A DNA stretch of 64,000 nt, from positions 544,001 through 608,000 of the forward strand of contig CAVXXK010000001.1 of assembly GCA_963765675.1 (NCBI GenBank), given 5' to 3'. Below are positions 4,008 to 18,928 of the stretch, in pieces. Position 1 is the stretch's first letter. Each line of letters starts with the position of its first letter. Source of the DNA: an uncultured delta proteobacterium. Lineage in GTDB: Bacteria; Desulfobacterota; Binatia; Binatales; Binataceae. The notes beneath the pieces were generated by a model. That model searched no databases and was not told the DNA's origin. It saw nothing but the letters and a program-made list of their open reading frames with translations. A program made the position numbers and the translations under genes.

Positions 4008-7000
4008 TCACGGCTCCTTGCTGGAGGCGGCGTGCGGCGCCCATTTCAGGATTCCTAGATCGGCGACGAAAATCGCGTAAAACGATTTGACCAGGATCAG
4101 CTCGATCACCGTAGCGAGTGCGAGTCCTCCGATCTGCGCGTAGCACAGCGGCTGCCAGAGCGGGCCGCCGTGCAGCGCCAGCGGAAACAGCGCCAGCACA
4201 GTTGCGCCCACGGTCACCATCACCGGCCGCAAGCGCTCGATTCCCGCGTCGAGCAATCCCTGGATCAGCTCCTCACCCATCTCACGGCGCTCTTCGATAA
4301 ACTCGAACAGCACGATTACGTGACTGACGATCACGCCGACGAGACTCGCGATGCCCAAAAACGCCATGAAGCCGAACGGCGCACCCATGATCCAAAGCGC
4401 GGCGACCGCGCCGACCGCGCCATACGGCACCGCCACGAACACCAGCCACGGCTTTACGAGATTGTTGAACTGCACCACCAGCGCGACGAAGATCAGCACC
4501 ACAGAAATCAACAGCACTACCGCCAGTTGGCCAAAGCCCTCGCTCTGCTTGGCCTGCTCGCCGCCGATCTCGAGGCGGTAGCCAGGCGGCAAGTGGCTGG
4601 CGATCTCTTTGAGCTTCGGGGTCGCGATCTTCATGACTTCCGACGGAAGCACGCCGGGAGCCGGATAGGCGACCACGGAGATCGTGCGAAAGTGATCGCG
4701 CCGGACGATCCGCTCGGGCGACAAGCGAAACACGATTGGCGCAACCGCCTGGATCGGAACCCGCCCGTTTCCTTGCGACGCAAAGATGTAAAGACTTCCC
4801 AGGTCTGAAAGCTGGGCGCGCTCCTGCTGGCGAAGGCGCGCGACGATCGGGATGCGCAGGTCACCGCTGATCAGCGTTCCCACCTGCGCTCCGGAAAGGC
4901 CCGCGGCGGCGGAATTGGCGATGTCCTGATTGGTTACACCGGCCAGATTCGCGCGATCGGGATTTATCGGCAGATCGATGACCGGACTCTCGGCCATCCA
5001 GTCAGTGCGGATGCGCCGCGCACCGGGAACCGAGCGCAGCACCGCCTCGGCCTGGTTGGCGATATTCTGAAGCGTCTCGATATCCGCCTGCTCGCGCGCC
5101 GGATCGATATCGGCCTGGCCGAAGATATGCACCTCGATTGGATAGCGCACCGGATTGGTGAGCAGTTGGCACACGTCAACGTATGCGCCGGGAACTTCCT
5201 TCGACAAGAGATTCTGGAGCGGGCCGACAAACTTCGGCATGTCTTCCTTATTTTCGATCTCGAGGATCAACTGCGCGTAATTAGCCTGTGGTGATTCCGG
5301 TGACACCGAAAACCAGAAGCGCGGCCCACCGCCGCCGACGAAGCTGGTGATCGATTTCAGGATCGTGCGCGGATGACCATGCTCGGGATGTTCCTTGCCA
5401 TATTCCGCGGCCGCGTTGCGCACCACTGCCGCGACTTTTTTCGCGGTGGCGTCAGTTTGAGAAATCGCCGCGCCGTTGGGAAGCCATACGTCGATATACG
5501 ACAGGTACTGCACATCCTCGGGAAAGTAGGCGCTGCGCAATTGCTTCGCGATCAGAAACCCCGCGATCAGAAACAGCATCGAGCATGCAACAAACGTCTT
5601 GCGATGCTCCAATGCGTAGTGCCCAATCCGGTAGTACACGCCGGTAGCGCCGTGGCTGCGCCGATACTCGATCGGCGGCAGCGGTTTTCCGGGCCGCATC
5701 AGGTAGTAACCGAGTTGCGGAATAAAGGTCATCGAAATGATCCGCGACGCGACCAGTGCGCAGGTCATCACGATCGGCAGGCTGTAGAGAAAATTCCCGG
5801 TGTCGCCCGAGAGCAACAGAAACGGCAGGTAGGCAACGATATTGGTGATGGTCGAGAACAGGATTGCACGTTCGAGCTTGGTCGGCCCAAGCCACGACGC
5901 GACTTCCGCCGGATGCCCGAGACCCAGATCGTGCTTGATCGCGTCGCCCGCCACCACCGGATCGTCCACCAACAGTCCAAGGGCGATGATCAAGGTCGCG
6001 ATCGACACCTGCTGGAGATCGATGCCGAGCACGTACATCATGCCGAACGTCATCGCGAGCGTGAGCGGAATTGACAGCGCGATCAGCAGCGCCGCGCGCC
6101 AATCCCAGAATCCGATCAGCGCAATGACGACCACCAGCGCGATCGCCTCGTACAGCGCACCGATGAACAGATGCACATTTTCGCGAACCTGGAGCGGCTG
6201 ATCGGAGGTGCGCGCGACTACGAGGTCCTCGGGCAGGCGGGTCTTCAGTCCCGCGATCGCCTTGTCGACTGCCGCGCCGAAGGCGCTTATCTGCTCGCCC
6301 GAGCGCATGAATACCGCGATCGTTACCGCCCGGCCGCGGTTCCAGTGCCCGTCGGCGGTCTTCCAGGTATAGAAATTCAGGAGCCGCGGCGGCGCTTCGT
6401 AACCGCGCGAGATATCCGCCAGATCGCGCAGGTAGAACGGCGATCCGGATTCCGACTTGCCGAGAATCACGTCGCCAATCTCCTGAGCGTCGGTAAATTC
6501 GCCGCTCGGATGCAGCGTCACGTCGGTGCCGGCCGCGTTGATCATCCCGGCCGACTGCGTGATATTTCGCGACGACAGAATCTGCGAAAGTTTGCTTGGC
6601 GTAAACCCGTACGACGCAAGCCGCTCTTGCGAGTAGACCAGGTTGACCCATTCCGGCAAAACGCCAGTGCGCGAGACCTTCTCGACGTCGGGAACCGCTT
6701 CCAGAGCACGCGAGATCAGATCGGTGTAGCGCTCGAGCTCGCGGTACGTGTACTTGTCACCCGCCGAGGCTTCGAGAATCGCCTCGGTCTGCGCCGGATC
6801 CCTGATCTCGACCGGCGGCCACGCGTCGGGATGAAACGCTTCGAACATCGAGGTCCCGACCTGGGAGTTGATATAGGCAGTCGCAGTTTTCACCAGGTCG
6901 GCGCCCGCAGGCTGTGCGGCGTCGAGGCCCGAAAAACCTGATCCGTCGAGCGGGCGAATATCGGTCGCCGCGTGATGCTCCGCCAGATAACGCGACAGCG

Positions 7001-7661
7001 CGTCGCGCACCCGCGTCACCGACTCGGCAGGCATCGTCGGCGGGAAGATCGTCACTAGCGAAATGCGATTGGATTTCGACTCCGGCGCGACGTTCGCGCG
7101 CGCTTTCTCGATCGCGGCGCGAACCTGACGCGCGCGTAGAGCAATCTCGACCTCGTTCACTTTGGGGCTCGCGACGGTCAGCATCAATGCCGCGGTATCG
7201 CCGAAATCGCTCTGGAACTGGATCGGGCCGGCTCCGTCAGGCAGATTGCGGATACTGGCGAGCTTGAGATTGATGTCGTTGAATTGCTTTTCGGTATCGC
7301 CGACGTTTTGAGTGAGCTGGATATAAACGATCGCGAGCCCGTCGAGCGTCAGCGATCGGATTCCGTAGTCGGTCCCGACGCCGGCGGGATGGATGTAGGA
7401 GTTGGTCGCGATCTTCTCCTCCATCTTGCGCGTTACGGTCTGTTCGATTTTCTCGGCGCTGACTCCTGGCCACGGACATATCGCGAGCGCCTGGCGCACT
7501 GGAATATCCGGATCCTTGCGCTTGGGCATGTGGAGGTAGCCGTAAATGCCCCACGCAACCACTGCGGCCAGCAGCACCCACGAGATGGCGCGATTCTCTA
7601 CAAAAAACCGCGCGGTGTTATGGGTCGTGCGGATTATTTCTTCGTCGCTGCGATGTGCCAT
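4008..7661 (-). CDS. RND efflux transporter permease subunit (AcrB/AcrD/AcrF family)
   Basis: 1217 aa; two large periplasmic loops; TM4 GLLVDDPVV; RLRPVMVT motif. Confidence 0.92.
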   Translation of the reverse strand: MAHRSDEEIIRTTHNTARFFVENRAISWVLLAAVVAWGIYGYLHMPKRKDPDIPVRQALAICPWPGVSAEKIEQTVTRKMEEKIATNSYIHPAGVGTDYGIRSLTLDGLAIVYIQLTQNVGDTEKQFNDINLKLASIRNLPDGAGPIQFQSDFGDTAALMLTVASPKVNEVEIALRARQVRAAIEKARANVAPESKSNRISLVTIFPPTMPAESVTRVRDALSRYLAEHHAATDIRPLDGSGFSGLDAAQPAGADLVKTATAYINSQVGTSMFEAFHPDAWPPVEIRDPAQTEAILEASAGDKYTYRELERYTDLISRALEAVPDVEKVSRTGVLPEWVNLVYSQERLASYGFTPSKLSQILSSRNITQSAGMINAAGTDVTLHPSGEFTDAQEIGDVILGKSESGSPFYLRDLADISRGYEAPPRLLNFYTWKTADGHWNRGRAVTIAVFMRSGEQISAFGAAVDKAIAGLKTRLPEDLVVARTSDQPLQVRENVHLFIGALYEAIALVVVIALIGFWDWRAALLIALSIPLTLAMTFGMMYVLGIDLQQVSIATLIIALGLLVDDPVVAGDAIKHDLGLGHPAEVASWLGPTKLERAILFSTITNIVAYLPFLLLSGDTGNFLYSLPIVMTCALVASRIISMTFIPQLGYYLMRPGKPLPPIEYRRSHGATGVYYRIGHYALEHRKTFVACSMLFLIAGFLIAKQLRSAYFPEDVQYLSYIDVWLPNGAAISQTDATAKKVAAVVRNAAAEYGKEHPEHGHPRTILKSITSFVGGGGPRFWFSVSPESPQANYAQLILEIENKEDMPKFVGPLQNLLSKEVPGAYVDVCQLLTNPVRYPIEVHIFGQADIDPAREQADIETLQNIANQAEAVLRSVPGARRIRTDWMAESPVIDLPINPDRANLAGVTNQDIANSAAAGLSGAQVGTLISGDLRIPIVARLRQQERAQLSDLGSLYIFASQGNGRVPIQAVAPIVFRLSPERIVRRDHFRTISVVAYPAPGVLPSEVMKIATPKLKEIASHLPPGYRLEIGGEQAKQSEGFGQLAVVLLISVVLIFVALVVQFNNLVKPWLVFVAVPYGAVGAVAALWIMGAPFGFMAFLGIASLVGVIVSHVIVLFEFIEERREMGEELIQGLLDAGIERLRPVMVTVGATVLALFPLALHGGPLWQPLCYAQIGGLALATVIELILVKSFYAIFVADLGILKWAPHAASSKEP

Positions 7662-8866
7662 TAGGGGATAATCCGGATTTGCTGGCCGTCGGTGACCATG
7701 GTCGCGCCGCGCACGATCACGCGGTCACCAATCGCAACTCCGGAGTCCACCGCGATTTCGTTGCCGACAATATCGCCCAGCCGCACCTTGTGCATCCGCG
7801 CGATCGTTTTGCCGCCCTCTGCGCTGGCGACGAATACGGCATAGCCGCTCGGATCCTCGGGTGGGCGGACCACTGCGTTTATTGGAACCGTCGCCGCGGT
7901 CGCGATTGGCGCGGACGCGTTGTTAGCGAGCTTGAGCGACGCGATCATCCCGACGCGTAAGCGGCCGTCCTTGTTCGGGATCGTGACCTCGACGTCGAAG
8001 GTGCGTGTGTTCTGGTCGGCGCTCTGCGCAATCCGCGTGATCTGCCCTTCGAGCTGCACGCCTGGCAGCGCCTCGGTGCGCAAGGTCTGCACTTGCCCCT
8101 GTTTCAACTGCCCCACTTCTATATCCGAGACTGCGAAGATCGCCTTCATCTCGGTCGTGTCGGCAATCTGAAACGCAACGACGCTCGGGCCGACCAGCGA
8201 ACCGATTTCGATTCCGCGGCTCAGCATCACGGCGTTCATAGGCGAGGTCAGCTTGCAGTAACCGAGATTGATCTGCGCCTGCTTGAGCGAGGCCTCGGAC
8301 TGCTTCACCTGCGCATCGGAAGACCTGTACTGTTGGACGGCATTGTCGTAGTCGCGTTGCGCGATGATCTTTTCCTTGAACAAGGCGCTATTGCGATTGT
8401 AGTCGGCCTTTGCCTTCGCATAGGTCGCCTCCGCATTGACCAGCACCGAGGCGGCCTGATTGACCTGCTGCTGATAGGGTCCGGTCTGAATCGTCGCGAG
8501 CAGTTCGCCGTTTTTTACGGGATCGCCGCCCTGGATATCGCGGGTGCGTCCTCCCGCTCCCGCAACTTGCTTGATCGTCTCGACATAGCCGTTGACCTGA
8601 AATGTCAAGCCAACCTGGCGGTAGGGCTGAAGGTTCGCGGTGTATGCGCCGCGATGGGCCTGCGTAGCCTCTCTGACCGCGCGCACGGTTACCGCAATCG
8701 GCGGCTCGGTGGTGGGGTTCGGGTGATTACCGCATCCGACTCCGCCGGCGATTGCCGCTACAATCAGTAATGCAAGCGAAAGATTGCGTATGTGCAAGTC
8801 GCTCCCTCCCGAATGGCTCCGCGTACGTGCCGAATCCTCCGCCACGCGCCGCCCTTCCTGCCCCAA
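7661..8866 (-). CDS. RND efflux periplasmic adaptor (membrane fusion protein)
   Basis: Lipoprotein-like signal (GVGC); biotinyl-lipoyl-like halves flanking an alpha-hairpin; ADQNTRTFDVEV and LRVGM motifs; start codon uncertain. Confidence 0.9.
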   Translation of the reverse strand: MGQEGRRVAEDSARTRSHSGGSDLHIRNLSLALLIVAAIAGGVGCGNHPNPTTEPPIAVTVRAVREATQAHRGAYTANLQPYRQVGLTFQVNGYVETIKQVAGAGGRTRDIQGGDPVKNGELLATIQTGPYQQQVNQAASVLVNAEATYAKAKADYNRNSALFKEKIIAQRDYDNAVQQYRSSDAQVKQSEASLKQAQINLGYCKLTSPMNAVMLSRGIEIGSLVGPSVVAFQIADTTEMKAIFAVSDIEVGQLKQGQVQTLRTEALPGVQLEGQITRIAQSADQNTRTFDVEVTIPNKDGRLRVGMIASLKLANNASAPIATAATVPINAVVRPPEDPSGYAVFVASAEGGKTIARMHKVRLGDIVGNEIAVDSGVAIGDRVIVRGATMVTDGQQIRIIP

Positions 8867-8913: not shown

Positions 8914-9945
8914 TTACGCATAGATGCGAGAGGTATCGCGAATCCGGGCTTTGATTTCGTCGCGGAGTGTTTTGGGTTCGAGCACCTTGATAAACGGGCT
9001 CATCGCCATGATCCAATTGGCAAGCTCCGCTGTCCCTTTGAGTCTGAGCCGCAAGAGCGTCCGGCCGTCGCGCGCTACCGAAAGCTGTTGAGAAGGGTGA
9101 ATAGTGCGCGCACCAAGGCGAGCGTCCGTTTCCGGACTGAGGCTTTTCAGTACTACCGTCGTCTCGCGATCCTCACTGACGATCCCGAATGTTCCTTGCA
9201 CGAATGCCGCGGGATTGTATGACGCGGGCAGCTGGAATCTTTCGTCAGTGCCGGAATCGTCTTTGATGAATTCCACCGAGCGCATCCGCTCGACGGCCAA
9301 ATAGATAATCCCCGAGCCGCGATGACTGCGGCCCAGTAGATATAGTCCGCCGCGATATTGAACCAGGGTGTACGGATTGAAGTCGTGCTTCCGATCGCTG
9401 CCATCGGTCCGATTCATCGACGCATAGTGGATCCGCAGGCGCTTCTCGTCGAGCAGCGCGCGCATAATCACGTCGATCTGTTCTTCATACGGACGATAAT
9501 CTTTGGGGACGTACTGCACGGTGTAGAACTTGCGATTGAAGTCGCGCAGCCTGAACTGCCACGCTGGCGGCAGGTTGGTCCGCACCCGCTCCCAGATATC
9601 GTCAACGCCCGACTTGAGCACGGTGCCCTCGAGAAATTTCAGCAACGCCAGGCTCGAGTACATCGCTGCCGCCTGATACACGTTCGAGCTCGGCCCTCCC
9701 CGCCGCGCCACCAATCGCAGCTTGCGGCTCGCACCGGCGCCCGCCGTCTCGACCACCATTTGCCCCAGCTTTCCGCGCATCCTCACGAACTCGCGCACGT
9801 AGCGGTCCACCGTGCGTCCACTGACCCCAAGCTCGCGCTTAATTCTCTGGAGCGGCACTCCGAGCGGCTCTTCCGTCAGCATCATCGCGATTCGCGCGTA
9901 ACGGATTCCCGACTCATAGGTTGGTTTTCTTGATTTGACCACCAT
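8914..9945 (-). CDS. WYL-domain transcriptional regulator (wHTH-WYL-WCX; PafB/DriD-like)
   Basis: HTH ELGVSGRTVDRYV; WYL core PYTLVQYRGGLYLLG...LAVERM; WCX WIMAMSPFIKVLEPKTLR; ATG at 9945 preceded by GAAGGAGG. Confidence 0.9.
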   Translation of the reverse strand: MVVKSRKPTYESGIRYARIAMMLTEEPLGVPLQRIKRELGVSGRTVDRYVREFVRMRGKLGQMVVETAGAGASRKLRLVARRGGPSSNVYQAAAMYSSLALLKFLEGTVLKSGVDDIWERVRTNLPPAWQFRLRDFNRKFYTVQYVPKDYRPYEEQIDVIMRALLDEKRLRIHYASMNRTDGSDRKHDFNPYTLVQYRGGLYLLGRSHRGSGIIYLAVERMRSVEFIKDDSGTDERFQLPASYNPAAFVQGTFGIVSEDRETTVVLKSLSPETDARLGARTIHPSQQLSVARDGRTLLRLRLKGTAELANWIMAMSPFIKVLEPKTLRDEIKARIRDTSRIYA

Positions 9946-9970
9946 CGGCGCCTCCTTCAGAGGCATCCGG

Positions 9971-10019
9971 ATTATAGCTGCTCGCTAAGACAACCGCTGT
10001 CTTGTGGAGCAGTTATAAT
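9971..10019. promoter_or_regulatory. Symmetric bidirectional promoter/operator: TGTCTT-N10-TATAAT on both strands
   Basis: ATTATA(9971-9976)-N10-AAGACA(9987-9992)-N5-TGTCTT(9998-10003)-N10-TATAAT(10014-10019), between the divergent WYL gene and recC. Confidence 0.85.
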
Positions 10020-10085
10020 GAGCGTGTTGGACGAGGCAAATCGAAACCCATATCGTCAGCCTTAAGGCACGGAGAGAAACGGGGG

Positions 10086-13000
10086 ATGCTTAGACTTCAC
10101 TACTCGAATCGGCTCGAAGGATTGATCGAGCCGCTCGCACACTCGATCACCGAGCAGCAACGGCGCGATCCGCTGCGGAAGATCTCGATCGTCGTACCGA
10201 GCCGAGCCGTCGAGCAGTTCGTGAAGTACCAGGTCGCCGAGCGTCTGGGAGTCGCTGCCAATCTCAGTTTTCCGTTCTTGCGCGCGCGTCTGACCAATGT
10301 TGTACACAGCGCCGACCCTCGGCTCCGCGTGCTCGATGCGAACGCGCTTCAACTCGTCATCTTCAACACTCTGATGAGTCAGAAAAATCGCGCCGGTTCG
10401 GAGCTCTCGCCCGCCTGGAACTACATTGACGCCGGCGGCAGCCGCGGCACTCCCGAGGCGGAGCTGCGAGCCTTCGAGTTGTCAGGACGGGTGGCAAAGC
10501 TGTTCGAAGAATACTCGATTTCGCGCCGCGCGATGCTCGCGCAGTGGAGTAGCGGCCGCGTGACTGCAGCCGGCACTGCAATCGCCGAAAATGAAAATTG
10601 GCAACAGGCTCTATGGCGAATCATCTTCGCGAGCGGCGCCGCGAATCCTGAATGGACTGGCGACGCGGCTCACGACTGGATGCTGCTGCCGGACGCTTTC
10701 GCGCGAATCGGCGACGCGGCACTGGCCGACGCGATGCGCGACGGACTCCTCCACGTGTTCGGACTCGCGTCGCCGGGCCAGGCTTATGCGGAGATTTTCG
10801 CGCGGCTCGGTAAGCTTGGCGCGCTTTCGATATACGCGCTCAATCCATGCCGGGAATTCTGGGAAGACCTGGATACCTCGCGCCGCTCTGCCCGGACTGA
10901 TTGGATCCATCGCGGAAGCCGGATTGGCGCTGATCTCGACACGAGCGAAGATCCATTCGGCCTCGCCGCCGGCGACAATCGCGCGCTCGAGCTTTGGGGC
11001 CGTCCCGGCCGCGAATATATCCGTCTGCTCAATGAGCTCAGCGATTGCGATTTCGAATCGAACTTTATCGACCAGCCCGATGGCAAAGGCGCGTCGCTTC
11101 TTTCGCGTGTTCAGCAAGATATCCTCGACCGCTCGCGCGGTGCTCAACTGCTGGACGCTCCTTCGACGGCAAGCATCAGCTTTCTGGCGTGTCCCGGAAT
11201 CCAGCGCGAGGTCGAGATTGTCGCGAACGGGATCTGGCGGCTCTTGAAGCAGAGCGCATCCGGAAAGAATCCGCTTCGCTTTCACGAAATCGGCGTGCTG
11301 ATTCCGGACACCGAGTGCGAGGCTTACGCGCCCTACATTGAGGCAGTCTTCGCGCGAATCCACGGCATCCCGGTCGAGATCAGCGGACGCAGCGTTGCGC
11401 GCCAAAGCCGCGTCGCCGAAGCAATCAGCCTGCTGCTCAAGCTCCCGCTCGGCCGGTTTACGCGCGCGGATCTGCTGCGCCTCCTGAGGCATCCTGCGCT
11501 CAGTGGCGGAGACCCTACGCTCGACGTTGAACTGTGGGATACCTGGTGCGAAGAGCTGGGAGTTTTCTTCGGCGCCGATGGGGGCGATCCAGCCGCGACC
11601 TATATTCCGCCCAATCTTTTCAATTGGGACCAGGCGCTCAAGCGACTCGCGCTGGGAGCATTCATGTCGGGCGAACGCAGCGGCGACGATCGTTTGTTCG
11701 AATCAGCCGCAATCGGCGCCTTGATGCCGCTAGAGATCGACGAAAGTGAAATCCCCGCGGCGCAGGTGTTCGTCGGCACCGCGCGCGCTCTGCTTGCCGA
11801 CGCGAACGCGATCAGGTCGGCGCGAATGAGCCTCAGCCGATGGGCGCAACTGCTCACGCGGATGATCGAGCGGTACATCATCGCCGACGAGCCCGAAGAT
11901 CGGCAGATGCGCGACCGATGCCTGGCTGCAATTGACGCGATACGTACAGAGGAAATCGAAAGCCCTGAGGTATCCTACGCCGTGGCGGAAGCGATGGCCT
12001 CGGTGCTGATTGAAGAGCTCGGCGCGCGCCAGGTCCGCTTTGCGGGGCATGGAGTAGCGGCAGGCGCGATGGGCACCCTGCACTCAATTCCTTTTCGCGC
12101 GATCTTCGTTATGGGTCTCGGCGAGTCGTTTTTTCCGGCGCGCGATCCTCGCGATCCGCTCGATCTTCGCGGGATCCGGCGCCACGCCGGCGACTTGAGT
12201 CCGACCGATCGCGATCGCTACACGTTCCTCGAATCGATTCTCGCCGCGCGCGAGCAGATCGCGTTCTCGTATGTCGCACGCGACGCGCATACTGGAGACA
12301 CGCTTGAGCCCTCGACGGTAATTCGCGAACTCCAATTCATTCTCCGCTCGTACCTAAAGGAGGACGCCGTCGATGCTCTGACCCTGACCCATCCCGTCAG
12401 CCGTTATGATCTCGCCTACTTCGGAGACCTTGGCGGCGTCGTATCGTCGCTCAACGGGCTCAGCGTCGATAGCGCTGCGCGCCAAGGCGCGCGAATCACG
12501 GCGTTGCGCGAGAATCTGGACCGTTACACCGATGACGCCGCGCGTCTGGACGCGCGCGAGCTGCTGGCAGCGCTCTCGCCCCAAGCGCGCGAGGCTCTGC
12601 GTCCCGATCTGCGGATTCCGAAGATCGATGGAGCGGCCGAGGTCGCGGAGCGCGACGCCGACTTGTATCTGCCGGTCGCTGCGTTACGCAAATTTCTCGA
12701 GTGTCCTGCGCAGGGCGCCGCGCGTTATGCGCTGGGCATGAGCGAAGACGAAGACGCCGACGAAGATATCGTCGACGAACCGGTCGACATGACCAGGCTC
12801 GACCAGGTGATACTGCTGCGCGAGCTGTTTTGGAAGCTGCCGCCGACCGAGGCCGCCGCCGAATCCGAATACGTGCGCGCGGCCGCGCTCGCGCAGATGA
12901 AGGGACGCGCACCGGCAGGTCCAATCGCCGATACATTGCGCGATCAGGACCTGGGTTTGATCCGGGGCTGGACTAAGTCCGCTGAGAAAGCGAATGCCGG

Positions 13001-13682
13001 CAATTTGTCGAAGTGGAAAGAGTTTCGTATCGGCCGCGCCGACGAGCACGCGTCATTGGCGCAAGAGATTCTGCCCTATCTGGTACTCGAAGTGCCGGTG
13101 CGGACGGCGCCCGGCAACATTATCACGCGGCGAGTCAGGCTCTACGGAAGCGTCGGAGTCTTCTCACCCGGATTCGACGCCGCGTTGCAATGCCTCACGC
13201 GCAAGGACGCCAAGGCCAAACATTTCCTGCCCCTGTTCCTGAACGCGATTGTGCTCAAAGCGGCGGGCGAGCCAGTTGCAAAAAAGTTCAGAGCGATCCT
13301 GGTGAGCGCCGGGGCCGAGAGCGAAAAGCCGCCTCTGTGGATCAGAACGCTGCGCGTGCCAGAACAGAATCAGACGGTCGAGTATCTCACAACACTCGTC
13401 AGTGATCTGCTTTCCGGGCCGCACGATTATTTCCTTCCAGTCGAAGGGGCGGAAGAAGTTTACAAGTTGTCGCGAAAAGGCAGCGGCGCGGAAGAAGCCG
13501 TGTCGGCGCTCGAAGAAATGCGCGATCAGGAACGTGACCGTGGGTTACCCAGCTCCGCGTATGGACCTGTGCGCCGATGGCGCGAACTCGAACTGCCTGG
13601 CGCGCAAGGAGTCTTCGAGCTCGTGAATCGCCGCTTCGGGCCGACCAGGTCGCTGTTCGACGATGAGGACGCGGGCGAATGA
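10086..13682 (+). CDS. recC: exodeoxyribonuclease V subunit gamma
   Basis: N-terminal LHYSNRLEGL; NPCREFWED; LELWGRPGREY; REVEIV; C-terminal inactive nuclease-like LRKFLECP; start taken at ATG 10086. Confidence 0.93.
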   Translation: MLRLHYSNRLEGLIEPLAHSITEQQRRDPLRKISIVVPSRAVEQFVKYQVAERLGVAANLSFPFLRARLTNVVHSADPRLRVLDANALQLVIFNTLMSQKNRAGSELSPAWNYIDAGGSRGTPEAELRAFELSGRVAKLFEEYSISRRAMLAQWSSGRVTAAGTAIAENENWQQALWRIIFASGAANPEWTGDAAHDWMLLPDAFARIGDAALADAMRDGLLHVFGLASPGQAYAEIFARLGKLGALSIYALNPCREFWEDLDTSRRSARTDWIHRGSRIGADLDTSEDPFGLAAGDNRALELWGRPGREYIRLLNELSDCDFESNFIDQPDGKGASLLSRVQQDILDRSRGAQLLDAPSTASISFLACPGIQREVEIVANGIWRLLKQSASGKNPLRFHEIGVLIPDTECEAYAPYIEAVFARIHGIPVEISGRSVARQSRVAEAISLLLKLPLGRFTRADLLRLLRHPALSGGDPTLDVELWDTWCEELGVFFGADGGDPAATYIPPNLFNWDQALKRLALGAFMSGERSGDDRLFESAAIGALMPLEIDESEIPAAQVFVGTARALLADANAIRSARMSLSRWAQLLTRMIERYIIADEPEDRQMRDRCLAAIDAIRTEEIESPEVSYAVAEAMASVLIEELGARQVRFAGHGVAAGAMGTLHSIPFRAIFVMGLGESFFPARDPRDPLDLRGIRRHAGDLSPTDRDRYTFLESILAAREQIAFSYVARDAHTGDTLEPSTVIRELQFILRSYLKEDAVDALTLTHPVSRYDLAYFGDLGGVVSSLNGLSVDSAARQGARITALRENLDRYTDDAARLDARELLAALSPQAREALRPDLRIPKIDGAAEVAERDADLYLPVAALRKFLECPAQGAARYALGMSEDEDADEDIVDEPVDMTRLDQVILLRELFWKLPPTEAAAESEYVRAAALAQMKGRAPAGPIADTLRDQDLGLIRGWTKSAEKANAGNLSKWKEFRIGRADEHASLAQEILPYLVLEVPVRTAPGNIITRRVRLYGSVGVFSPGFDAALQCLTRKDAKAKHFLPLFLNAIVLKAAGEPVAKKFRAILVSAGAESEKPPLWIRTLRVPEQNQTVEYLTTLVSDLLSGPHDYFLPVEGAEEVYKLSRKGSGAEEAVSALEEMRDQERDRGLPSSAYGPVRRWRELELPGAQGVFELVNRRFGPTRSLFDDEDAGE

Positions 13683-16600
13683 ACGGCGCGATATATATCC
13701 GTCCCTCCGTCATCGACAAAATCGGACTCGGCACGCATCGCGTGATCGAGGCCAGTGCCGGCACCGGCAAGACCTTCACGCTCGAGCATCTGATTGTCGA
13801 GTTGCTGATTCGCGGAGAAGCGAAGCTCGATCAAATCCTGGCCGTCACCTTCACTCAGCGCGCGACCGCGGAGCTGCGCGCTCGCGTTCGCGCCGCGATC
13901 GATCGCGCTCTGCGCGCGGCGTATGCAGACGATAAAGCAATCAAATCGGCGTTCCCCGGCATCGACCTTGTTGCGCCGCTCGAGGCGGCGCTGTTTTCTT
14001 TCGAGCGTGCGCCGATTCACACGATTCACAGTTTCTGCCAGCGAGTCCTGACTGAACTCGCATTCGATACTGGCGCGAGGTTCGGGACCGAGGCCGCCGA
14101 TGGACGCGCTTTGTTCCACGAGGCGTTCCGCGCGGTGTTGCGCGAAAAAAGAATAGCTAGCGCCGAATACTCCGAGCCCCTTGAGAAATGGATTAAGGAT
14201 TCGGGCAAGCCGGTTGACGACCTCGAGAAGATGCTCTTCGAGGTGAACAGCAATCATTATGATCCGGAAAATGGCGCAACGGCGGCGTCGATCGAATCTC
14301 GGCTGGCCAACCTGTTCCTGCCGCCGATGCGCGAATGGCTGAGCGCGGAAAAGTTCCGCCGCGGCGTGATCGACTATGACGACATGCTCGAACGTGTTCA
14401 TCAGGCGCTCGAGGACGACACGGACGGCAGGCTCGCTGCGGCGCTGCGCGCGCGGTACTGCTTCGCTCTGATCGACGAGTTCCAGGACACCGACCAAATC
14501 CAGTGGGCAATCTTCCGCAAAATCTTTGTCGACGGAGATACGCAGAGCGCCTTGTATCTGATCGGCGATCCCAAGCAGGCAATCTATTCATTTCGGGGCG
14601 CCGATGTTCACGCTTACATGCGGGCGCGCGACAAAATTGCCGCGCCGCCGAATGATCCGATTGCGCTGACCGAGAATTTTCGCTCGACCGCACCGATGAT
14701 CGCCGCGGTCAACGCGATTTTGGATCAGAACGCGAATCCACCGCTGTTCAACAGCACGATCAAATATCAGAACCCGGTCTTCTGCGGGCGCGAAGATCTG
14801 TGTGCTAAGGCGGGTGGCAAAGAGCTGACACCGATCACGCTGATTACGGCGAAACACGACGCGAAATATAAGGCGGCGGCCCTGAGGCGGATGCTCGCGT
14901 GCCGGATCGCCGCGACGATCAAGGCGATCGTGAATGACCCTGACTCGGCGATCACCGTCACTGACGGCGCGAAGTCCGGACCGGCGGTCACGTACGGAGA
15001 TATTTTTATTCTGACCAACACTAACGCCGAAGGAATCAAACTTGCCGAGTATCTCCGCGCCGAAGGCGTCCCGTATGCATTCTACAAACGCGAAGGATTG
15101 TTCCAGACCGATGAGGCGCGCGATGTTCTCGACATGCTGCGAGCCGTCGCCGCGCCTAACAATCGATCGCATCGCCTGAAGGCGTGGGCGACGCCGTTCT
15201 TCGCCATCCCGATGCGCGAGCTCGCAAAGTTGGATGAGCCGGCACCTTCCGATCCACTGATGGCGCGATTGGCGAAGTGGCACGGGCTCGCGAAGGAGGG
15301 AGATCTCGCGGAGTTGTTCGACTCGCTGCTCGAAGAGAGCGGCCTGGCGGCGCGCCAACTGTTTGGGGCACCAAATCTCCGCGAGCTTACCAACTACGAA
15401 CACCTCTTCGAGTTGATCCTCACTGAATCGCTCAGGGAAGGATGGTCGATCGCGGAAATTATCGATCGTCTCGGCGCTTACGTCGGCGAGTATCGGCTGC
15501 CGTCGGGCGAGGATCCTAATCTCATGCGGCTCGAAAGCGAACGCGCGGCGGTCCAGATCATGACGATTCACAAAGCCAAAGGGCTCGAAGCGCGAGTCGT
15601 TTTTCTCTTCGGCGGTTTCTTCGCGAACAACAGTCCGCGTCCGGTGAAGATTTATCATGACCAGGAAAGCGTTCGCCGCCTCGCTATCGGCAGCGCCGCG
15701 CAGCTCATGGAACGCGGGCCGATCAAGCAAGACGAGGCCGAAGAGGATCAGCGGCTGCTGTACGTAGCGATCACGCGCGCACGCGCAAAACTTTATCTCC
15801 CTTATTTTCCAACCAGACCCGGAAAACTTGATCTGTCCGGAAGATACAAGCAGCTGAATGATCGACTGCGCGCCATGGACGCGGCCGGACAGCTTGCAGC
15901 GCCTCTGTTCGAGACCGTTGCGCTGGAAATGGAGCCACGCGAGATCAGCGCGAACGCAAATCCGATCAGCGGATGGCGGCCTCCGGCAAGCCTGCTCGCG
16001 GACCCGAGCGCCGTAAAACTCGAAAGCGAGCTCGCGACCCTAGCACACAGATGCGCCGCGCTTTCGACAGTATCGTACACGTCGTTAAATCGCCGCGCCG
16101 TACCGGAACTCGATCTGAGCGAATACAAGGAACCTATCGCCGAGGCTCCAGGGACCGCATCGGAGCCCGCTGGAGGCGCCGCGGCCGGAATCTTTCTGCA
16201 CGAGACGATCGAAAAGCTCGATCTGAAAGCTCTGGCCGTCGCACGCGATCTTGCTTCATGGAGCGCGCTCGACGAGGTTCGCGAGCTGTTCGATTCCGCA
16301 CTGCGGCGTCATCAGGTGCCTGAACGCGAGCGCTGGATGATCCGCGGCCCGGAGCTCGTCTTCAACACCCTGCGATCGCCAATCGCGGCTGGAGCCACGA
16401 ACATCCCCGCACTGGCCGGATGCGAGTCCTCGCGCGAGATGGAGTTCACGTTTCCGATACCCGAGGCCGGGCACGGCCTGCTCGCTTCCGCGCGGGCGAA
16501 TGACGCCGCGCGATGGCGAATCGAGCGGGGCGTGTATGTTGGATTCGTGGATTTCGTTTTCCGCCACGAAGATCGCGTCTACTTCGCCGACTGGAAGAGC

Positions 16601-18928
16601 GACCTGCTCGACTCGTACGAACCCGACTCGGTCGCGCAGCACGCGCGGAATAATTACAGTCTGCAGGCAAAAATCTACACCATCGGCGTTACGCGCCTGC
16701 TTGGCATTCACACCGAGGCGGAGTACGAGGCCGGGTTCGGCGGCTTGCTCTACCTGTTTATTCGGGGCATCACGCCCCGCGGCGGCGGAAATCGTGGTGT
16801 CTACTTTTATCGTCCGCCTTGGGCCGAAGTGGTGCGCGCAGAAGGCGAGCTGATGCGGCCGTTTCGAAATGGTGGGCAACCGATGAAGCCCCTTTATTCT
16901 CTGCTCGGAATGGACACGGCCACTCAGCGCAGCGCCCGTGCGGAGCGCGCCGCTACGCAGTTCGAAACCGACATGGCGCGTCTTCGCGCGTCGGTCGCCG
17001 AACTCAATCTCGATCCCGGCACGGTGCATCTGGCGGCGGAAATCGCAGCGCTCGAGCCCGCCTTCGAGCTGGACGACAGCGCGCGGTTCGCGCTGATTGT
17101 GCTGATTGTCCTGTCGCTGGCCGCCGTCGCTGAGGGCAACACGCGATTTCCCGTGAGCGGCGATGAATCGAAACAACCGCTGGAGCGGATGCTTTCCGCC
17201 CTGATGGCGCCGCCTTTCGACGATTTCACGCGCGAGCGGGTCGAGCAGAAAATCGCGGAGATTCTCGCCGCTGATAGCGCGCCTGCGGTAATCGGACGAA
17301 GTCCCGACTCGCGCCGTCCGCTGCTTTATCTGAAGCCGTATCTTTACCACGAGCGAATCTACCGCGCCGAGCAAAGACTTGCCGAACGCCTGGCGGCGTT
17401 GGTGGACATCGATGGCGAGCCAAACATGCCGGCGATCGCAAAGTCACTTGCGGATGTGGTTGCTCGTCCGGCGATGATCGCCGGCACCGCAGCGGTTCTT
17501 TCTGACGAACAACGCCGGGCGGTCGGAATCGGCGCGAGTTCGCGGCTTGCGATAATTTCTGGCGGCCCGGGAACTGGCAAGACTTCGATAATCGCGGCGA
17601 TCCTGCGGGTGCTGGTGCGCGTTGGGATTGATCCCGCGGCCGTCGCACTGGCCGCTCCAACCGGGAAGGCCGCCTACCGGATGAGTGAGTCGATCCGCAG
17701 CACGATCGGATCGATCGAAAATCCGGCTCCAGAAGATTCCACGCTCGCCGCCGCGATTCCTGCTGCGTCCACGATTCATCGCTTGCTCGGGTTTTCGAGC
17801 ACACGAAGATCTTTTATTCATCATCGCGGCAATCCGCTCGACGCGTCGGTCGTAATCGTCGATGAGGCGTCGATGCTCGATCTGACGTTGATGGATCATT
17901 TGACCGGGGCGCTTCGGCCGCAGGCGCGCCTGGTGATTGTCGGTGACGCCGATCAGTTGCCGTCGGTTGCCGCGGGCGCGGTGCTGCGCGATCTGATGCC
18001 GGCAGCGGAACCGGCCGCATCCGCCGCTATGGCGGGAGTAAGCGCAACGCTCAGCAAGAACTATCGCGCGAGGGCCGAGGACACGGGCGGAGCGGCGATC
18101 GCAATGGCGGCGCGGCAAATCAACGAGGGGCGCGCGGATCTGATCTCGGCCGCCGACAGTCCGGTAGTCAGGAGGGCGACTGCAGCCGAGATCGCGTTTT
18201 CCGGCGTCGAGCTCGTCACCGGCGCGTCGGAGTCACTGCCGGAATTTCTGTCGTTATTCGCGCGGAAACAAATCGAGTCCGATGAGTACGCTGCGATGGC
18301 GCAGGAAAATTATACGTTCGAAGACGGTGCGTTCAGCGCCGAGGACGCGGCGACAATAGCGCGGATGCTCGCGCATCTGGCGCGAGCCAGGATCCTTTGC
18401 GTGACACGGATTGGACGTTGCGGCGCCGACGCGATCAACGCGCGGATGCATCGCGCTGCGCCGGGCCGCAGCATTCCGCCCGAGCGCGGCGCGATGATCG
18501 CGGGCGAGCCGGTGATTGTTATGCGCAACGACTACGATCACATGCTGTTCAACGGCGATCAGGGCGTGCTGGTGAACCTTGCCGAGCGCGGTGGACGCCG
18601 CTCGCTCGCGGCAGTGTTCACGCGAGAGACGGGCCTTGCCGCGTTTCGAATCGAAATGCTGTCGGACGCGATCGATCTGTGCTACGCGATGACGGTGCAT
18701 AAGGCGCAAGGCTCGGAGTTCGATTGCGTCGCGCTGATTCTGCCCGAGCGCGACATGCCGCTGCTCTCGCGCGAGACGATCTACACGGCAGTCAGCCGCA
18801 GCCGGCGATCATGCGTGATCTTTGGCGACAAGGATCTGCTCGAACAAGCCGTGGCGCGGCGTAGCGAACGGTTCTCCGGACTCGCGCAGGCGATCGAGCG
18901 CTATCGTGCCGGTAATACCGGCGGCTGA
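13679..18928 (+). CDS. recB: RecB helicase-nuclease (aa 1-1068) read in frame with RecD helicase (from ATG 16883): apparent RecB-RecD fusion
   Basis: RecB: EASAGTGKT, LIDEFQDTD, GDPKQAIYSFRGAD, MTIHKAKGLE, nuclease VDFVF..FADWKS..YSLQAKIY. RecD: GGPGTGKT, AAPTGKAA, TIHRLLG, VDEASM, GDADQLPSV, TVHKAQGSEF. Confidence 0.9.
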   Translation: MNGAIYIRPSVIDKIGLGTHRVIEASAGTGKTFTLEHLIVELLIRGEAKLDQILAVTFTQRATAELRARVRAAIDRALRAAYADDKAIKSAFPGIDLVAPLEAALFSFERAPIHTIHSFCQRVLTELAFDTGARFGTEAADGRALFHEAFRAVLREKRIASAEYSEPLEKWIKDSGKPVDDLEKMLFEVNSNHYDPENGATAASIESRLANLFLPPMREWLSAEKFRRGVIDYDDMLERVHQALEDDTDGRLAAALRARYCFALIDEFQDTDQIQWAIFRKIFVDGDTQSALYLIGDPKQAIYSFRGADVHAYMRARDKIAAPPNDPIALTENFRSTAPMIAAVNAILDQNANPPLFNSTIKYQNPVFCGREDLCAKAGGKELTPITLITAKHDAKYKAAALRRMLACRIAATIKAIVNDPDSAITVTDGAKSGPAVTYGDIFILTNTNAEGIKLAEYLRAEGVPYAFYKREGLFQTDEARDVLDMLRAVAAPNNRSHRLKAWATPFFAIPMRELAKLDEPAPSDPLMARLAKWHGLAKEGDLAELFDSLLEESGLAARQLFGAPNLRELTNYEHLFELILTESLREGWSIAEIIDRLGAYVGEYRLPSGEDPNLMRLESERAAVQIMTIHKAKGLEARVVFLFGGFFANNSPRPVKIYHDQESVRRLAIGSAAQLMERGPIKQDEAEEDQRLLYVAITRARAKLYLPYFPTRPGKLDLSGRYKQLNDRLRAMDAAGQLAAPLFETVALEMEPREISANANPISGWRPPASLLADPSAVKLESELATLAHRCAALSTVSYTSLNRRAVPELDLSEYKEPIAEAPGTASEPAGGAAAGIFLHETIEKLDLKALAVARDLASWSALDEVRELFDSALRRHQVPERERWMIRGPELVFNTLRSPIAAGATNIPALAGCESSREMEFTFPIPEAGHGLLASARANDAARWRIERGVYVGFVDFVFRHEDRVYFADWKSDLLDSYEPDSVAQHARNNYSLQAKIYTIGVTRLLGIHTEAEYEAGFGGLLYLFIRGITPRGGGNRGVYFYRPPWAEVVRAEGELMRPFRNGGQPMKPLYSLLGMDTATQRSARAERAATQFETDMARLRASVAELNLDPGTVHLAAEIAALEPAFELDDSARFALIVLIVLSLAAVAEGNTRFPVSGDESKQPLERMLSALMAPPFDDFTRERVEQKIAEILAADSAPAVIGRSPDSRRPLLYLKPYLYHERIYRAEQRLAERLAALVDIDGEPNMPAIAKSLADVVARPAMIAGTAAVLSDEQRRAVGIGASSRLAIISGGPGTGKTSIIAAILRVLVRVGIDPAAVALAAPTGKAAYRMSESIRSTIGSIENPAPEDSTLAAAIPAASTIHRLLGFSSTRRSFIHHRGNPLDASVVIVDEASMLDLTLMDHLTGALRPQARLVIVGDADQLPSVAAGAVLRDLMPAAEPAASAAMAGVSATLSKNYRARAEDTGGAAIAMAARQINEGRADLISAADSPVVRRATAAEIAFSGVELVTGASESLPEFLSLFARKQIESDEYAAMAQENYTFEDGAFSAEDAATIARMLAHLARARILCVTRIGRCGADAINARMHRAAPGRSIPPERGAMIAGEPVIVMRNDYDHMLFNGDQGVLVNLAERGGRRSLAAVFTRETGLAAFRIEMLSDAIDLCYAMTVHKAQGSEFDCVALILPERDMPLLSRETIYTAVSRSRRSCVIFGDKDLLEQAVARRSERFSGLAQAIERYRAGNTGG

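What the first reader, a model, noticed from the sequence alone, without database searches (positions are those of the whole stretch)
8914..18928. Candidate WYL-RecBCD module: an ssDNA-sensing regulator wired directly to a DNA end-resection machine
Seen: a complete wHTH-WYL-WCX gene is divergent from recC-recB-recD, 140 bp apart, and shares a symmetric promoter with it. Established: WYL factors such as PafBC and DriD are activated by single-stranded nucleic acid and run LexA-independent damage responses; BrxR and CapW control anti-phage operons; RecBCD produces ssDNA and degrades linear phage DNA. Inference: a feedback circuit in which RecBCD products switch the WYL protein, which then regulates recBCD and itself. 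It could be an inducible repair or anti-phage system. I do not know of this locus being characterised.
Basis: partly seen in the sequence, partly recalled or inferred. Interest (0 to 1): 0.85.

Follow-up and report, generated by a model that had tools for sequence, protein, structure and literature searches.

The report
DriD-like regulator paired with recBCD
In an uncultured soil bacterium of the Binataceae, a regulator gene resembling known DNA-damage sensors sits back to back with the recC-recB-recD DNA-end-processing genes, and a conserved 13-base palindrome lies between them; this looks like a new example of a known kind of damage-response switch.

Summary
A wHTH-WYL-WCX gene (8914-9945, minus strand) lies 140 bp from recC (10086-13682). 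Next comes one ORF holding recB and recD (13679-18928). That fusion comes from one extra T and is absent in six relatives.

The pairing is conserved. It is found in 10 of 10 congeners and in 50 of 65 related loci, all from Binataceae-type metagenome genomes. All 51 spacers carry one palindrome, GACAAC-S-GTTGTC. A TAnnnT -10 hexamer lies exactly 12 nt away on the recC side in 47 of 51. None of the 51 has a -35. This is the promoter layout reported for Caulobacter DriD.

DriD is the best match by sequence profile (E 3.5e-20) and by fold (E 3.5e-16). BrxR and CapW match far more weakly. DriD's base-contacting residues are kept, but only about 4 of 11 ssDNA-pocket residues are.

The same box lies upstream of addBA, dnaB and a DUF5925-AAA ATPase gene in several genomes. 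The regulator therefore probably runs a small damage regulon rather than a private RecBCD circuit.

The host also has LexA and AddAB, and no defence island is present. PafBC is already reported to control RecBCD and AdnAB. Verdict: a new member of a known kind, of moderate interest. Activation and ssDNA sensing remain inferred.

The parts
8914..9945 (-). WYL regulator gene (343 aa from ATG 9945; an alternative ATG at 9966 gives 350 aa): wHTH, helical linker, WYL, WCX
   Evidence: Pfam WYL and WCX. Profile match to DriD over the full length, E 3.5e-20. Foldseek top hits are DriD, E 3.5e-16. SD GAAGGAGG lies before ATG 9945.
9946..10085 (.). 140-bp divergent spacer holding both promoters
   Evidence: No full sigma-70 -35/-10 pair was found. 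No Rfam match.
9989..10001 (.). 13-bp palindromic box GACAACCGCTGTC, the predicted operator of the WYL protein
   Evidence: Exactly one such box in 51 of 51 recC-linked spacers. Also found just upstream of the WYL gene in 10 of 15 loci without recC.
10014..10019 (+). -10 hexamer TATAAT for recC, 12 nt from the box
   Evidence: TAnnnT at exactly 12 nt in 47 of 51 loci and within 11-13 nt in 50 of 51. None of 51 has a >=4/6 -35 at 16-18 nt spacing.
9971..9976 (-). -10 hexamer (TATAAT on the minus strand) for the WYL gene, 12 nt from the box
   Evidence: TAnnnT at 12 nt in only 6 of 51 loci. nAnnnT at 13 nt in 35 of 51; in Binatus-type spacers printed this hexamer reads GATGAT.
10049..10061 (+). 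conserved recC leader element CATATCGTCAGCC, function unknown
   Evidence: Exact or near-exact in 10 of 10 congener spacers aligned, including spacers expanded to 366-626 bp (most diverged in L047). Absent in the 2 Binatus spacers printed in the same call.
10086..13682 (+). recC (1198 aa)
   Evidence: PF04257 E 5.2e-54 and RecC_C E 1.3e-05. TIGR01450 scores 339 bits, below its 582.9 cut-off.
13679..16882 (+). recB part of the fused ORF
   Evidence: TIGR00609 scores 542.6 bits, below its 696 cut-off. Walker A at aa 28, DEFQD at aa 266, nuclease motif VGFVDFVF...DWKS at aa 955-973.
16862..16864 (+). T-run with one extra T that fuses the recB and recD frames
   Evidence: Alignment with four congeners. 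The one contig that covers this place, from a ~90% identical relative in a public run, lacks one letter here.
16883..18928 (+). recD part of the fused ORF (the ATG 16883 is the recD start in relatives)
   Evidence: TIGR01447 scores 373.6 bits, above its 310.15 cut-off. Walker A GGPGTGKT at aa 1295.

Best explanation
The 343-aa protein is a homodimeric wHTH-WYL-WCX transcription factor of the DriD/DdaA/PafBC damage-response type. Its operator is the 13-bp palindrome GACAAC-S-GTTGTC, which can be written GWCA-N5-TGWC. Assuming a start site about 7 nt after each -10, the box is centred about 31 bp upstream of both divergent start sites, where a -35 element would normally lie. The likely sequence of events is as follows. 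A DNA-damage signal, probably ssDNA, binds the WYL/WCX pocket and frees the wHTH domains. The dimer then binds the box and recruits RNA polymerase to the -35-less recC promoter, raising recC-recB-recD expression and possibly its own. The same box upstream of addBA, dnaB and a DUF5925-AAA ATPase gene suggests a small damage regulon that acts alongside LexA. Because RecBCD and AddAB produce ssDNA, this would close a positive feedback loop. What is shown: gene order, conserved adjacency, the conserved box and its fixed phasing to the -10, likeness to DriD, and a predicted dimer. What is inferred: that the protein binds the box, the direction of regulation, and the ligand.
For: Adjacency: 10 of 10 congeners; 50 of 65 related loci. 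On the WYL tree the recC-linked and unlinked rows separate with 2 changes, and 0 of 500 label shuffles were as low. Box: one per spacer in 51 of 51. TAnnnT lies 12 nt away on the recC side in 47 of 51, and 0 of 51 have a -35. No sigma-70 promoter pair was found in the spacer. DriD promoters have the same logic: the site is at a fixed distance from the -10, there is no recognisable -35, and the driD promoter is bidirectional with the divergent operon activated (PMC13004042, introduction and passages read). Homology: profile A2 against the PDB gives DriD E 3.5e-20 over the full length and PafBC 1.1e-11, with no BrxR or CapW hit at E<=1. Foldseek gives DriD 3.5e-16, PafBC 3.7e-13, CapW 3.7e-08, BrxR 1.6e-07. 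DriD base-contact residues R37/E40/R41 align with R44/D47/R48 (PMC10853764). The box has the spacing and half-sites of the DdaA motif CGWCA-N5-TGWCG (PMC12392091). Dimer: ipSAE 0.55 against a best control of 0.00. That mark was reached by 20 of 30 proteins solved as pairs and 1 of 23 solved as single chains. The runs agree in at least 39% of contacts and partner pLDDT is at least 69. The interface is in the WCX domain and helix 1. This pass may reflect memory of solved DriD dimers. Regulon: a box upstream of addB in G000, in 5 of 5 other congeners checked and in 2 of 2 Binatus genomes, but in 0 of 8 genomes that lack a WYL homologue. A box upstream of dnaB in G000, G005, G009 and G239. A box upstream of the DUF5925-AAA gene in G005, G349 and G000.
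Against: No experiment exists: binding, induction and ligand are all inferred. Only Y168, R176, R189 and Y192 of the DriD ssDNA pocket are kept. R178 is His here, and S172, R204, W206, R207, Y240 and R288 are replaced. A site between two -10 elements could equally serve a repressor. Genome-wide the relaxed box is barely enriched: 13 sites against 9 in the reversed-sequence control, and 11 sites with at most one mismatch against roughly 10 expected by my own arithmetic. The regulon case therefore rests on cross-genome conservation among related genomes, which are not independent. At addB and dnaB the box does not show the 12-nt phasing to a clear -10 (my reading). Six genera carry the same recC type with no WYL gene and no box within the 5 kb fetched, so RecBCD does not need this regulator. 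The structure model has only moderate confidence (mean pLDDT 72.8, and 46-64 in the helical linker).
Confidence: 0.6

Rival explanations
1. The WYL protein is a repressor of the BrxR/CapW type. It sits on the palindrome between the two -10 elements and blocks both promoters until ssDNA or another signal releases it.
For: It has the same domain architecture and the same divergent placement beside the regulated operon as BrxR and CapW. CapW is also reported to sense ssDNA (PMC11662680, abstract seen). The box lies between the two -10 hexamers, so occlusion is sterically possible. The regulator family switches neighbours, recCBD or DUF5925-AAA, as reported for BrxR-family regulators (PMC9122601, abstract seen).
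Against: No BrxR or CapW sequence hit at E<=1 with the family profile. Fold likeness is about eight orders of magnitude weaker in E-value than to DriD. None of 51 recC promoters has a usable -35, so these promoters should be weak without an activator. The fixed 12-nt phasing to the -10 matches what is described for DriD activation (PMC13004042).
Confidence: 0.2
2. The regulator controls only itself, or other genes, and its place next to recC is inherited gene order without regulatory meaning for recC.
For: The box also sits just upstream of the WYL gene in 10 of 15 loci that have no recC, so autoregulation alone could explain its presence. Six genera carry this recC type without the regulator. 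In Caulobacter only one direction of the bidirectional driD promoter is DriD-activated (PMC13004042).
Against: The well-phased, well-conserved -10 (TAnnnT at 12 nt in 47 of 51) is on the recC side. On the WYL side TAnnnT lies at 12 nt in only 6 of 51. The pairing is kept while both proteins diverge to about 45-50% identity.
Confidence: 0.08
3. The locus is an inducible anti-phage module. An accessory RecBCD degrades linear phage DNA and is switched on by a WYL sensor.
For: RecBCD is patchy in the family (16 of 24 genomes) while AddB is nearly universal (23 of 24), so RecBCD is dispensable there. WYL regulators often accompany defence systems (PMC9122601, abstract seen).
Against: The neighbours are an RND efflux pump and gnd/zwf, not defence genes. 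PADLOC gives only generic WYL, RecD and GajB-helicase hits. The other box-bearing genes are addBA and dnaB, which are housekeeping repair and replication genes. The regulator is closest to damage-response activators.
Confidence: 0.07

Closest known systems
DriD of Caulobacter crescentus (PDB 8tp8, 8tpk, 9pfq)
   Same: Best sequence-profile and fold match over the full length. Predicted homodimer through the WCX domain. The Arg-x2-Glu/Asp-Arg base-contact motif is kept. Palindromic operator at a fixed distance from a -10 in promoters without a -35, and a bidirectional promoter with a divergent operon (PMC13004042). Targets include replication and repair genes: dnaG and recJ there, dnaB, addBA and recCBD here.
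   Different: About 17-20% identity only. Half-site spacing is N5 here against N7 (ATACGAC-N7-GTCGTAT). Most ssDNA-pocket residues differ. No didA-like or bapE-like target was identified. Here the divergent operon is recC-recB-recD.
PafBC of mycobacteria and other Actinobacteria (PDB 6sj9, 9fnd)
   Same: A WYL activator of a LexA-independent damage response. Its regulon is reported to include both end-resection complexes, RecBCD and AdnAB (PMC8223512, passage read). Its promoters also lack a functional -35 (PMC9186387 discussion).
   Different: PafBC is a heterodimer or fusion that binds a short non-palindromic motif, controls about 150 genes, and is encoded in the Pup-proteasome locus rather than next to recC. 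The profile match is weaker (E 1.1e-11).
DdaA of Acinetobacter / Moraxellaceae
   Same: A homodimeric WYL activator whose motif CGWCA-N5-TGWCG has the same half-site core and N5 spacing as GWCA-N5-TGWC here (PMC12392091, passages read).
   Different: DdaA replaces the SOS system and also controls CRISPR-Cas and restriction-modification systems. Here LexA is present and the predicted regulon is small. No direct sequence comparison with DdaA was made here.
BrxR and CapW (WYL repressors of BREX and CBASS)
   Same: wHTH-WYL-WCX architecture, palindromic operators, and regulator genes placed next to the operon they control.
   Different: They are repressors next to defence systems. There was no sequence hit at E<=1 and fold E-values were 1.6e-07 to 3.7e-08. 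No defence genes are present here.
SiwR of Mycobacterium smegmatis
   Same: A WYL activator reported to control adjacent genes under genotoxic stress (PMC10693628, abstract only).
   Different: The paper was not compared in detail, and its target genes were not read.

Membership tests
DriD/DdaA/PafBC-type WYL damage-response activators | N-terminal winged HTH with base-contacting Arg-x2-Glu-Arg in the recognition helix | tested here: met
   R44/D47/R48 align with DriD R37/E40/R41 (residue roles from PMC10853764). R48 is invariant in the 19-row alignment A2. No Pfam HTH model hit.
DriD/DdaA/PafBC-type WYL damage-response activators | Three-helix bundle between the HTH and WYL domains | tested here: inconclusive
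   The model has helices at 89-106, 114-123 and 127-132, but pLDDT there is only 46-64. The full-length Foldseek alignment to DriD spans this region.
DriD/DdaA/PafBC-type WYL damage-response activators | WYL domain followed by a WCX dimerisation domain | tested here: met
   PF13280 46.6 bits and PF25583 45.1 bits, both above their cut-offs. The C-terminal half aligns to the DriD C-domain over 200 columns, with TM 0.76 normalised by the target and rmsd 3.9 A.
DriD/DdaA/PafBC-type WYL damage-response activators | Homodimer (as in DriD and DdaA) | tested here: met
   Prediction only: ipSAE 0.55 against a best control of 0.00. The mark was reached by 20 of 30 proteins solved as pairs and 1 of 23 solved as single chains. 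The runs agree in at least 39% of contacts and partner pLDDT is at least 69. The pass may reflect memory of solved DriD dimers.
DriD/DdaA/PafBC-type WYL damage-response activators | Palindromic operator with GWC-type half-sites | tested here: met
   GACAAC-S-GTTGTC in 51 of 51 spacers. Binding by the protein was not tested.
DriD/DdaA/PafBC-type WYL damage-response activators | Operator at a fixed distance from the -10 in promoters that lack a -35 | tested here: met
   TAnnnT at 12 nt in 47 of 51, and 0 of 51 with a >=4/6 -35. No sigma-70 pair in the spacer.
DriD/DdaA/PafBC-type WYL damage-response activators | ssDNA-binding pocket residues | tested here: inconclusive
   Y168, R176, R189 and Y192 are kept. 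R178 is His. S172, R204, W206, R207, Y240 and R288 are replaced (PMC10853764).
DriD/DdaA/PafBC-type WYL damage-response activators | Activation of target genes after DNA damage | not testable with these tools
   The organism is uncultured. No run on record as RNA was returned by the one run search, which was made with kind 'dna'.
BrxR/CapW-type WYL repressors | Sequence or fold closer to BrxR/CapW than to the activators | tested here: not met
   No hit at E<=1. Foldseek gives 3.7e-08 for CapW and 1.6e-07 for BrxR, against 3.5e-16 for DriD.
BrxR/CapW-type WYL repressors | Placed next to an anti-phage defence system | tested here: not met
   The neighbours are recCBD, an RND efflux pump, gnd and zwf. 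PADLOC gives only generic hits.
RecBCD (exodeoxyribonuclease V) | RecC subunit | tested here: met
   PF04257 E 5.2e-54 and PF17946. TIGR01450 scores 339 bits, below its cut-off, so this is a divergent RecC.
RecBCD (exodeoxyribonuclease V) | RecB: SF1 helicase plus a C-terminal PD-(D/E)XK nuclease | tested here: met
   UvrD-helicase and UvrD_C domains. Walker A, DEFQD and the GFVDFVF...DWKS motif. TIGR00609 is below its cut-off. The motif names are recalled, not taken from a call.
RecBCD (exodeoxyribonuclease V) | RecD subunit | tested here: met
   TIGR01447 scores 373.6 bits against a 310.15 cut-off. Walker A present.
RecBCD (exodeoxyribonuclease V) | Three separate polypeptides | tested here: not met
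   In this assembly recB and recD are in one frame because of one extra T. They are separate in 6 of 6 relatives examined. Whether the extra T is real could not be settled.

The most novel reading that the evidence does not exclude
The regulator and its 13-bp box define a LexA-independent double-strand-break regulon in Binataceae. In it both end-resection machines (RecBCD and AddAB), the replicative helicase DnaB and an uncharacterised DUF5925-AAA ATPase are induced by the product of resection itself, ssDNA. This would be a self-amplifying loop. The DUF5925-AAA ATPase, which neighbours this regulator family in recC-less lineages, would then be a new DNA-damage effector.
Probability: 0.35. Interest if true: 0.6.

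Novelty: new member of a known kind. Interest (0 to 1): 0.45.

Why it matters
The finding extends the DriD/PafBC/DdaA class of WYL damage-response regulators to an uncultured soil lineage (Candidatus Binataceae). It supplies a clean, testable operator and promoter layout. It also gives a natural case in which the sensor gene is physically paired with the enzyme that makes its presumed ligand. The predicted regulon links both end-resection complexes, DnaB and a protein family of unknown function (DUF5925-AAA), which gives that family a first functional lead. The concept itself, a WYL activator controlling RecBCD, already has a precedent in the PafBC regulon, so this does not open a new kind of system.

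Tried and rejected
1. The window's 22-nt-arm inverted repeat as the operator. Only the inner 13 bp and the two -10 hexamers are conserved across loci, and the arms between them vary (my reading). I therefore treat the long repeat as a by-product of two mirrored promoters.

2. A large regulon. Genome-wide counts are near chance. No box was found upstream of recA or lexA in G000.

3. WYL next to recC elsewhere in the phylum. Among 401 genomes, 120 have RecC and 212 have a WYL domain. No listed WYL hit outside the family lies on the same contig within 15 kb of a RecC hit, by my manual comparison. However, 174 WYL rows were not listed, so this is incomplete. The flanks of 6 divergent recC operons (L039-L044) gave no hit to this WYL protein. 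Their upstream ORFs were not scanned against Pfam.

4. The RND efflux genes downstream of the WYL gene as part of the module. They are present only in the 7 closest of the 65 loci, so I rejected this.

5. An RNA element in the spacer or operon. No Rfam match at E<=1.

6. Whether the extra T at 16862-16864 is real. No public run holds more than 28% of the sampled words. Only one contig, from a ~90% identical relative, spans the place, and it lacks one letter there. The question stays open. The habitat labels of those runs rest on small shares and are not used.

8. Supplementary files of the DriD, DdaA and PafBC papers were not seen. Their motif tables and regulon lists could bear on the comparison.

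9. Literature searches for a described WYL-recC locus found none: 'WYL, RecBCD, regulon', 'PafBC, recC, recB', 'WYL domain, recC' and 'Binatota, RecBCD' (0 papers).

Full report
OBSERVATION. An ORF at 8914-9966 on the minus strand carries Pfam WYL and WCX domains. Its likely start is the ATG at 9945, preceded by GAAGGAGG. recC most likely starts at the ATG at 10086 (MLRLHYSNRLEGL), where the Exonuc_V_gamma match begins. That gives the 140-bp spacer. The spacer holds an inverted repeat with 22-nt arms (9971-9992 / 9998-10019, 82% complementary), with TATAAT at each outer end, one on each strand.

Downstream, recB and recD are read as one 1749-aa ORF (13679-18928). The NCBIfam recB model matches aa 202-1053 and the recD model matches aa 1112-1737. 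Walker A motifs, the DEFQD motif and the C-terminal nuclease motif are all present.

THE recB-recD FUSION. Alignment with four congeners shows one extra T in the run at 16862-16864. It lies about 20 nt before the ATGA overlap where recB normally stops and recD starts. In 4 of 4 congeners and 2 of 2 Binatus genomes examined over the full operon, the two genes are separate, overlapping ORFs. Only one public contig spans this place. It comes from a ~90% identical relative and lacks one letter there. I cannot tell whether the extra T is real or a homopolymer error in the assembly. I lean towards error, but that is inference.

WHO CARRIES IT. The nearest relatives are metagenome-assembled genomes titled Candidatus Binataceae, Candidatus Binatus or 'uncultured delta proteobacterium'. 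The divergent WYL-recC pairing is present in 10 of 10 other genomes of the genus. One of these, G010, is flagged unpublished; without it the count is 9 of 9. The pairing is also present in 50 of 65 loci recovered from one-genome-per-species contigs with a profile of the regulator. In those loci the regulator is down to 44-52% identical and RecC down to about 44-51% identical to the window's proteins.

On a maximum-likelihood tree of 61 regulator sequences, the recC-linked and unlinked rows separate with only 2 label changes (shuffled mean 12.9; 0 of 500 shuffles as low). Four of the 65 loci had too short a best match and were left out of the tree.

The pairing is not universal. Six other genera of the family carry the same recC type (43-50% identity) with no WYL gene and no box within the 5 kb fetched. 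In other families of the class, RecC and WYL homologues lie on different contigs, or 18 kb apart in one case.

THE OPERATOR. Each of the 51 recC-linked spacers (50 loci plus the window) holds exactly one copy of the palindrome G-N-CAAC-NNN-TG-N-C. The forms are GACAACCGTTGTC in 27, GACAACGGTTGTC in 14, GACAACCGCTGTC in 5, and other single variants in 5. The pattern occurs once per ~13-kb locus.

On the recC side a TAnnnT hexamer lies exactly 12 nt from the box in 47 of 51 spacers, and within 11-13 nt in 50 of 51. None of the 51 has a hexamer matching TTGACA at 4 of 6 or better at 16-18 nt spacing. The consensus scan finds no complete sigma-70 promoter in the spacer. On the regulator's side TAnnnT lies at 12 nt in 6 loci. 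An nAnnnT hexamer lies at 13 nt in 35 loci; in the Binatus-type spacers printed it reads GATGAT. If transcription starts about 7 nt after each -10, the box is centred near -31 of both promoters, where a -35 would normally be.

The outer arms of the window's long inverted repeat are not conserved (my reading). The real elements are the 13-bp box and the two mirrored -10 hexamers.

WHAT THE REGULATOR RESEMBLES. A profile of 19 family members matches Caulobacter DriD over its full length (E 3.5e-20). PafBC follows at 1.1e-11, and there is no BrxR or CapW hit at E<=1. An AlphaFold2 model has mean pLDDT 72.8, lower in the helical linker. Searched against the PDB it finds DriD first (E 3.5e-16), then PafBC (3.7e-13), with CapW and BrxR at 3.7e-08 and 1.6e-07.

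The DriD residues that read bases, R37, E40 and R41 (PMC10853764, passages read), align with R44, D47 and R48. The box can be written GWCA-N5-TGWC. That is the core and spacing of the DdaA motif CGWCA-N5-TGWCG, and it is related to the DriD motif CGAC-N7-GTCG (PMC12392091, passages read).

A two-copy fold passes the tool's mark: ipSAE 0.55 against a best control of 0.00. That mark was reached by 20 of 30 proteins solved as pairs and 1 of 23 solved as single chains. The runs agree in at least 39% of contacts and partner pLDDT is at least 69. The interface lies in the WCX domain and helix 1. Because DriD dimers are solved, this pass may only show likeness.

The promoter logic matches the cryo-EM description of DriD. 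There the site is at a fixed distance from a recognisable -10, no -35 is identifiable, and the driD promoter is bidirectional with the divergent operon being the one activated (PMC13004042, introduction and passages read).

THE LIGAND IS LESS CERTAIN. I compared the ten DriD residues listed as ssDNA contacts, plus R176, with this protein. Y168, R176, R189 and Y192 are kept (Y174, R185, R198, Y202). R178 is His187. S172, R204, W206, R207, Y240 and R288 are replaced (PMC10853764). ssDNA is the reported ligand of DriD, PafBC and CapW (abstracts), so it is the best guess here, but it remains an inference.

A WIDER REGULON. The box is not confined to this locus.

- addB. This gene leads the AddAB-like pair at G000:C1:872492-879198. 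A box-like site lies about 88 nt upstream of addB in G000. One is also present in 5 of 5 other congeners checked and in 2 of 2 Binatus genomes, although the flanking sequence has diverged. Of 15 other family or class genomes checked, 8 lack a WYL homologue and none of these has a site. Seven have the other type of regulator, and only one of them (G024) has a site with 2 or fewer mismatches.
- dnaB. A box lies 130-270 nt upstream of dnaB in G000, G005, G009 and G239.
- DUF5925-AAA ATPase gene. A box lies directly upstream in G005 and G349. In G000 the arrangement is box, 12 nt, TTTAAT, 7 nt, ATG.
- Loci without recC. In the 15 related loci that lack recC, the same box sits just upstream of the regulator gene in 10. 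In all 5 of the loci whose DUF5925-AAA-sized neighbour I scanned, that neighbour is a DUF5925-AAA ATPase; 10 proteins were scanned in all.

Exact-pattern searches of four genomes gave 4-7 distinct sites each, against 0-2 per strand for the reversed-pattern control. In G000 the relaxed pattern is barely above control, 13 against 9. The case for these extra targets therefore rests on conservation among related genomes, which are not independent. At addB and dnaB I did not see the 12-nt phasing to a clear -10.

HOST CONTEXT. The genome has LexA and RecA. The AddB homologue is found in 23 of 24 other genomes of the family, whereas this recC type is in 16 of 24. RecBCD is therefore the dispensable, patchy partner. 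The flanks of the locus are an RND efflux pump on one side and gnd and zwf on the other. PADLOC gives only generic WYL and helicase hits. This is not a defence island.

MECHANISM AND ODDS. My best reading has overall confidence 0.6. Taken separately, I put about 0.8 on 'binds the box and regulates recC', about 0.6 on 'activator', and about 0.5 on 'ssDNA is the ligand'. In this reading a DriD-type homodimer binds the box when a damage signal is present. It then recruits RNA polymerase to the -35-less recC promoter, and probably to a few other promoters. Since RecBCD and AddAB make ssDNA, the loop would reinforce itself.

The rivals are:
- a BrxR/CapW-style repressor at the same site (0.2);
- autoregulation only, with recC an uninvolved neighbour (0.08);
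- an inducible anti-phage RecBCD (0.07).

NOVELTY. Four full-text searches found no description of a WYL gene paired with recC. [quoted passage not shown] WYL control of end resection is therefore already known in principle. The new elements are the lineage, the physical pairing of sensor gene and recCBD, the defined box with its strict phasing, and the link to DUF5925-AAA. I file it as a new member of a known kind, of moderate interest.

LIMITS. Everything is computational, and all relatives are metagenome bins. The phylum-wide cross-check of WYL and RecC positions was cut at 150 of 324 rows.

Noticed in passing
window 16862-16864 (within ORF 13679-18928): recB and recD are fused into one 1749-aa ORF by a single extra T in a T-run. 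Six relatives have separate, overlapping genes. This may be an assembly homopolymer error or a real fusion in this one species.
   Followed up: partly
window 10049-10061: A conserved leader element CATATCGTCAGCC lies about 25-35 nt before the recC start. It is kept exact or near-exact in all 10 congener spacers aligned, even where the spacer grows to 366-626 bp, and is absent in the 2 Binatus spacers printed in the same call. There is no Rfam match. Its function is unknown.
   Followed up: no
G000:C1:1765790-1766965 (outside the window); L092, L093, L094, L096, L100; L153, L158: A DUF5925 + AAA ATPase of about 380-400 aa neighbours this regulator family in loci without recC. In recC-linked genomes it carries the same box upstream. 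Its function is unknown, and it is a candidate damage-response effector.
   Followed up: partly
G000:C1:872492-879198 (outside the window): An AddAB-like pair: a 1078-aa protein with a PD-(D/E)XK domain and a 1187-aa protein with UvrD helicase plus PD-(D/E)XK. A box-like site lies about 88 nt upstream and is conserved in the genus and in Binatus.
   Followed up: yes
G000:C3:468860 (outside the window): A box (GACAGCCGTTGTC) lies 132 nt upstream of dnaB and is conserved in G005, G009 and G239.
   Followed up: partly
G000:C14:99418-100101 (outside the window): A second, shorter WYL protein (227 aa, HTH_11 + WYL, no WCX hit) lies next to a glutathione S-transferase gene. It is unrelated to the recC locus.
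   Followed up: no
G000:C6:511320 and G000:C3:42402 (outside the window): Two further boxes have a -10-like hexamer 12 nt away. One precedes a 70-aa Cys-rich ORF with no Pfam hit; the orthologous site is present in G005. The other lies inside tilS; the orthologous site is present in G005 and G009.
   Followed up: partly
window 4008-8866 (-): RND efflux adaptor and pump genes follow the WYL gene on the same strand, 47 bp after its stop, and no terminator was found by the scan. This arrangement is kept only in the 7 closest loci.
   Followed up: yes
L112, L113, L114; G018:C9:181623-185219: Some relatives show a regulator match broken into pieces (L112-L114), or a recC with an in-frame TGA (G018). 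These may be decay or assembly errors.
   Followed up: no
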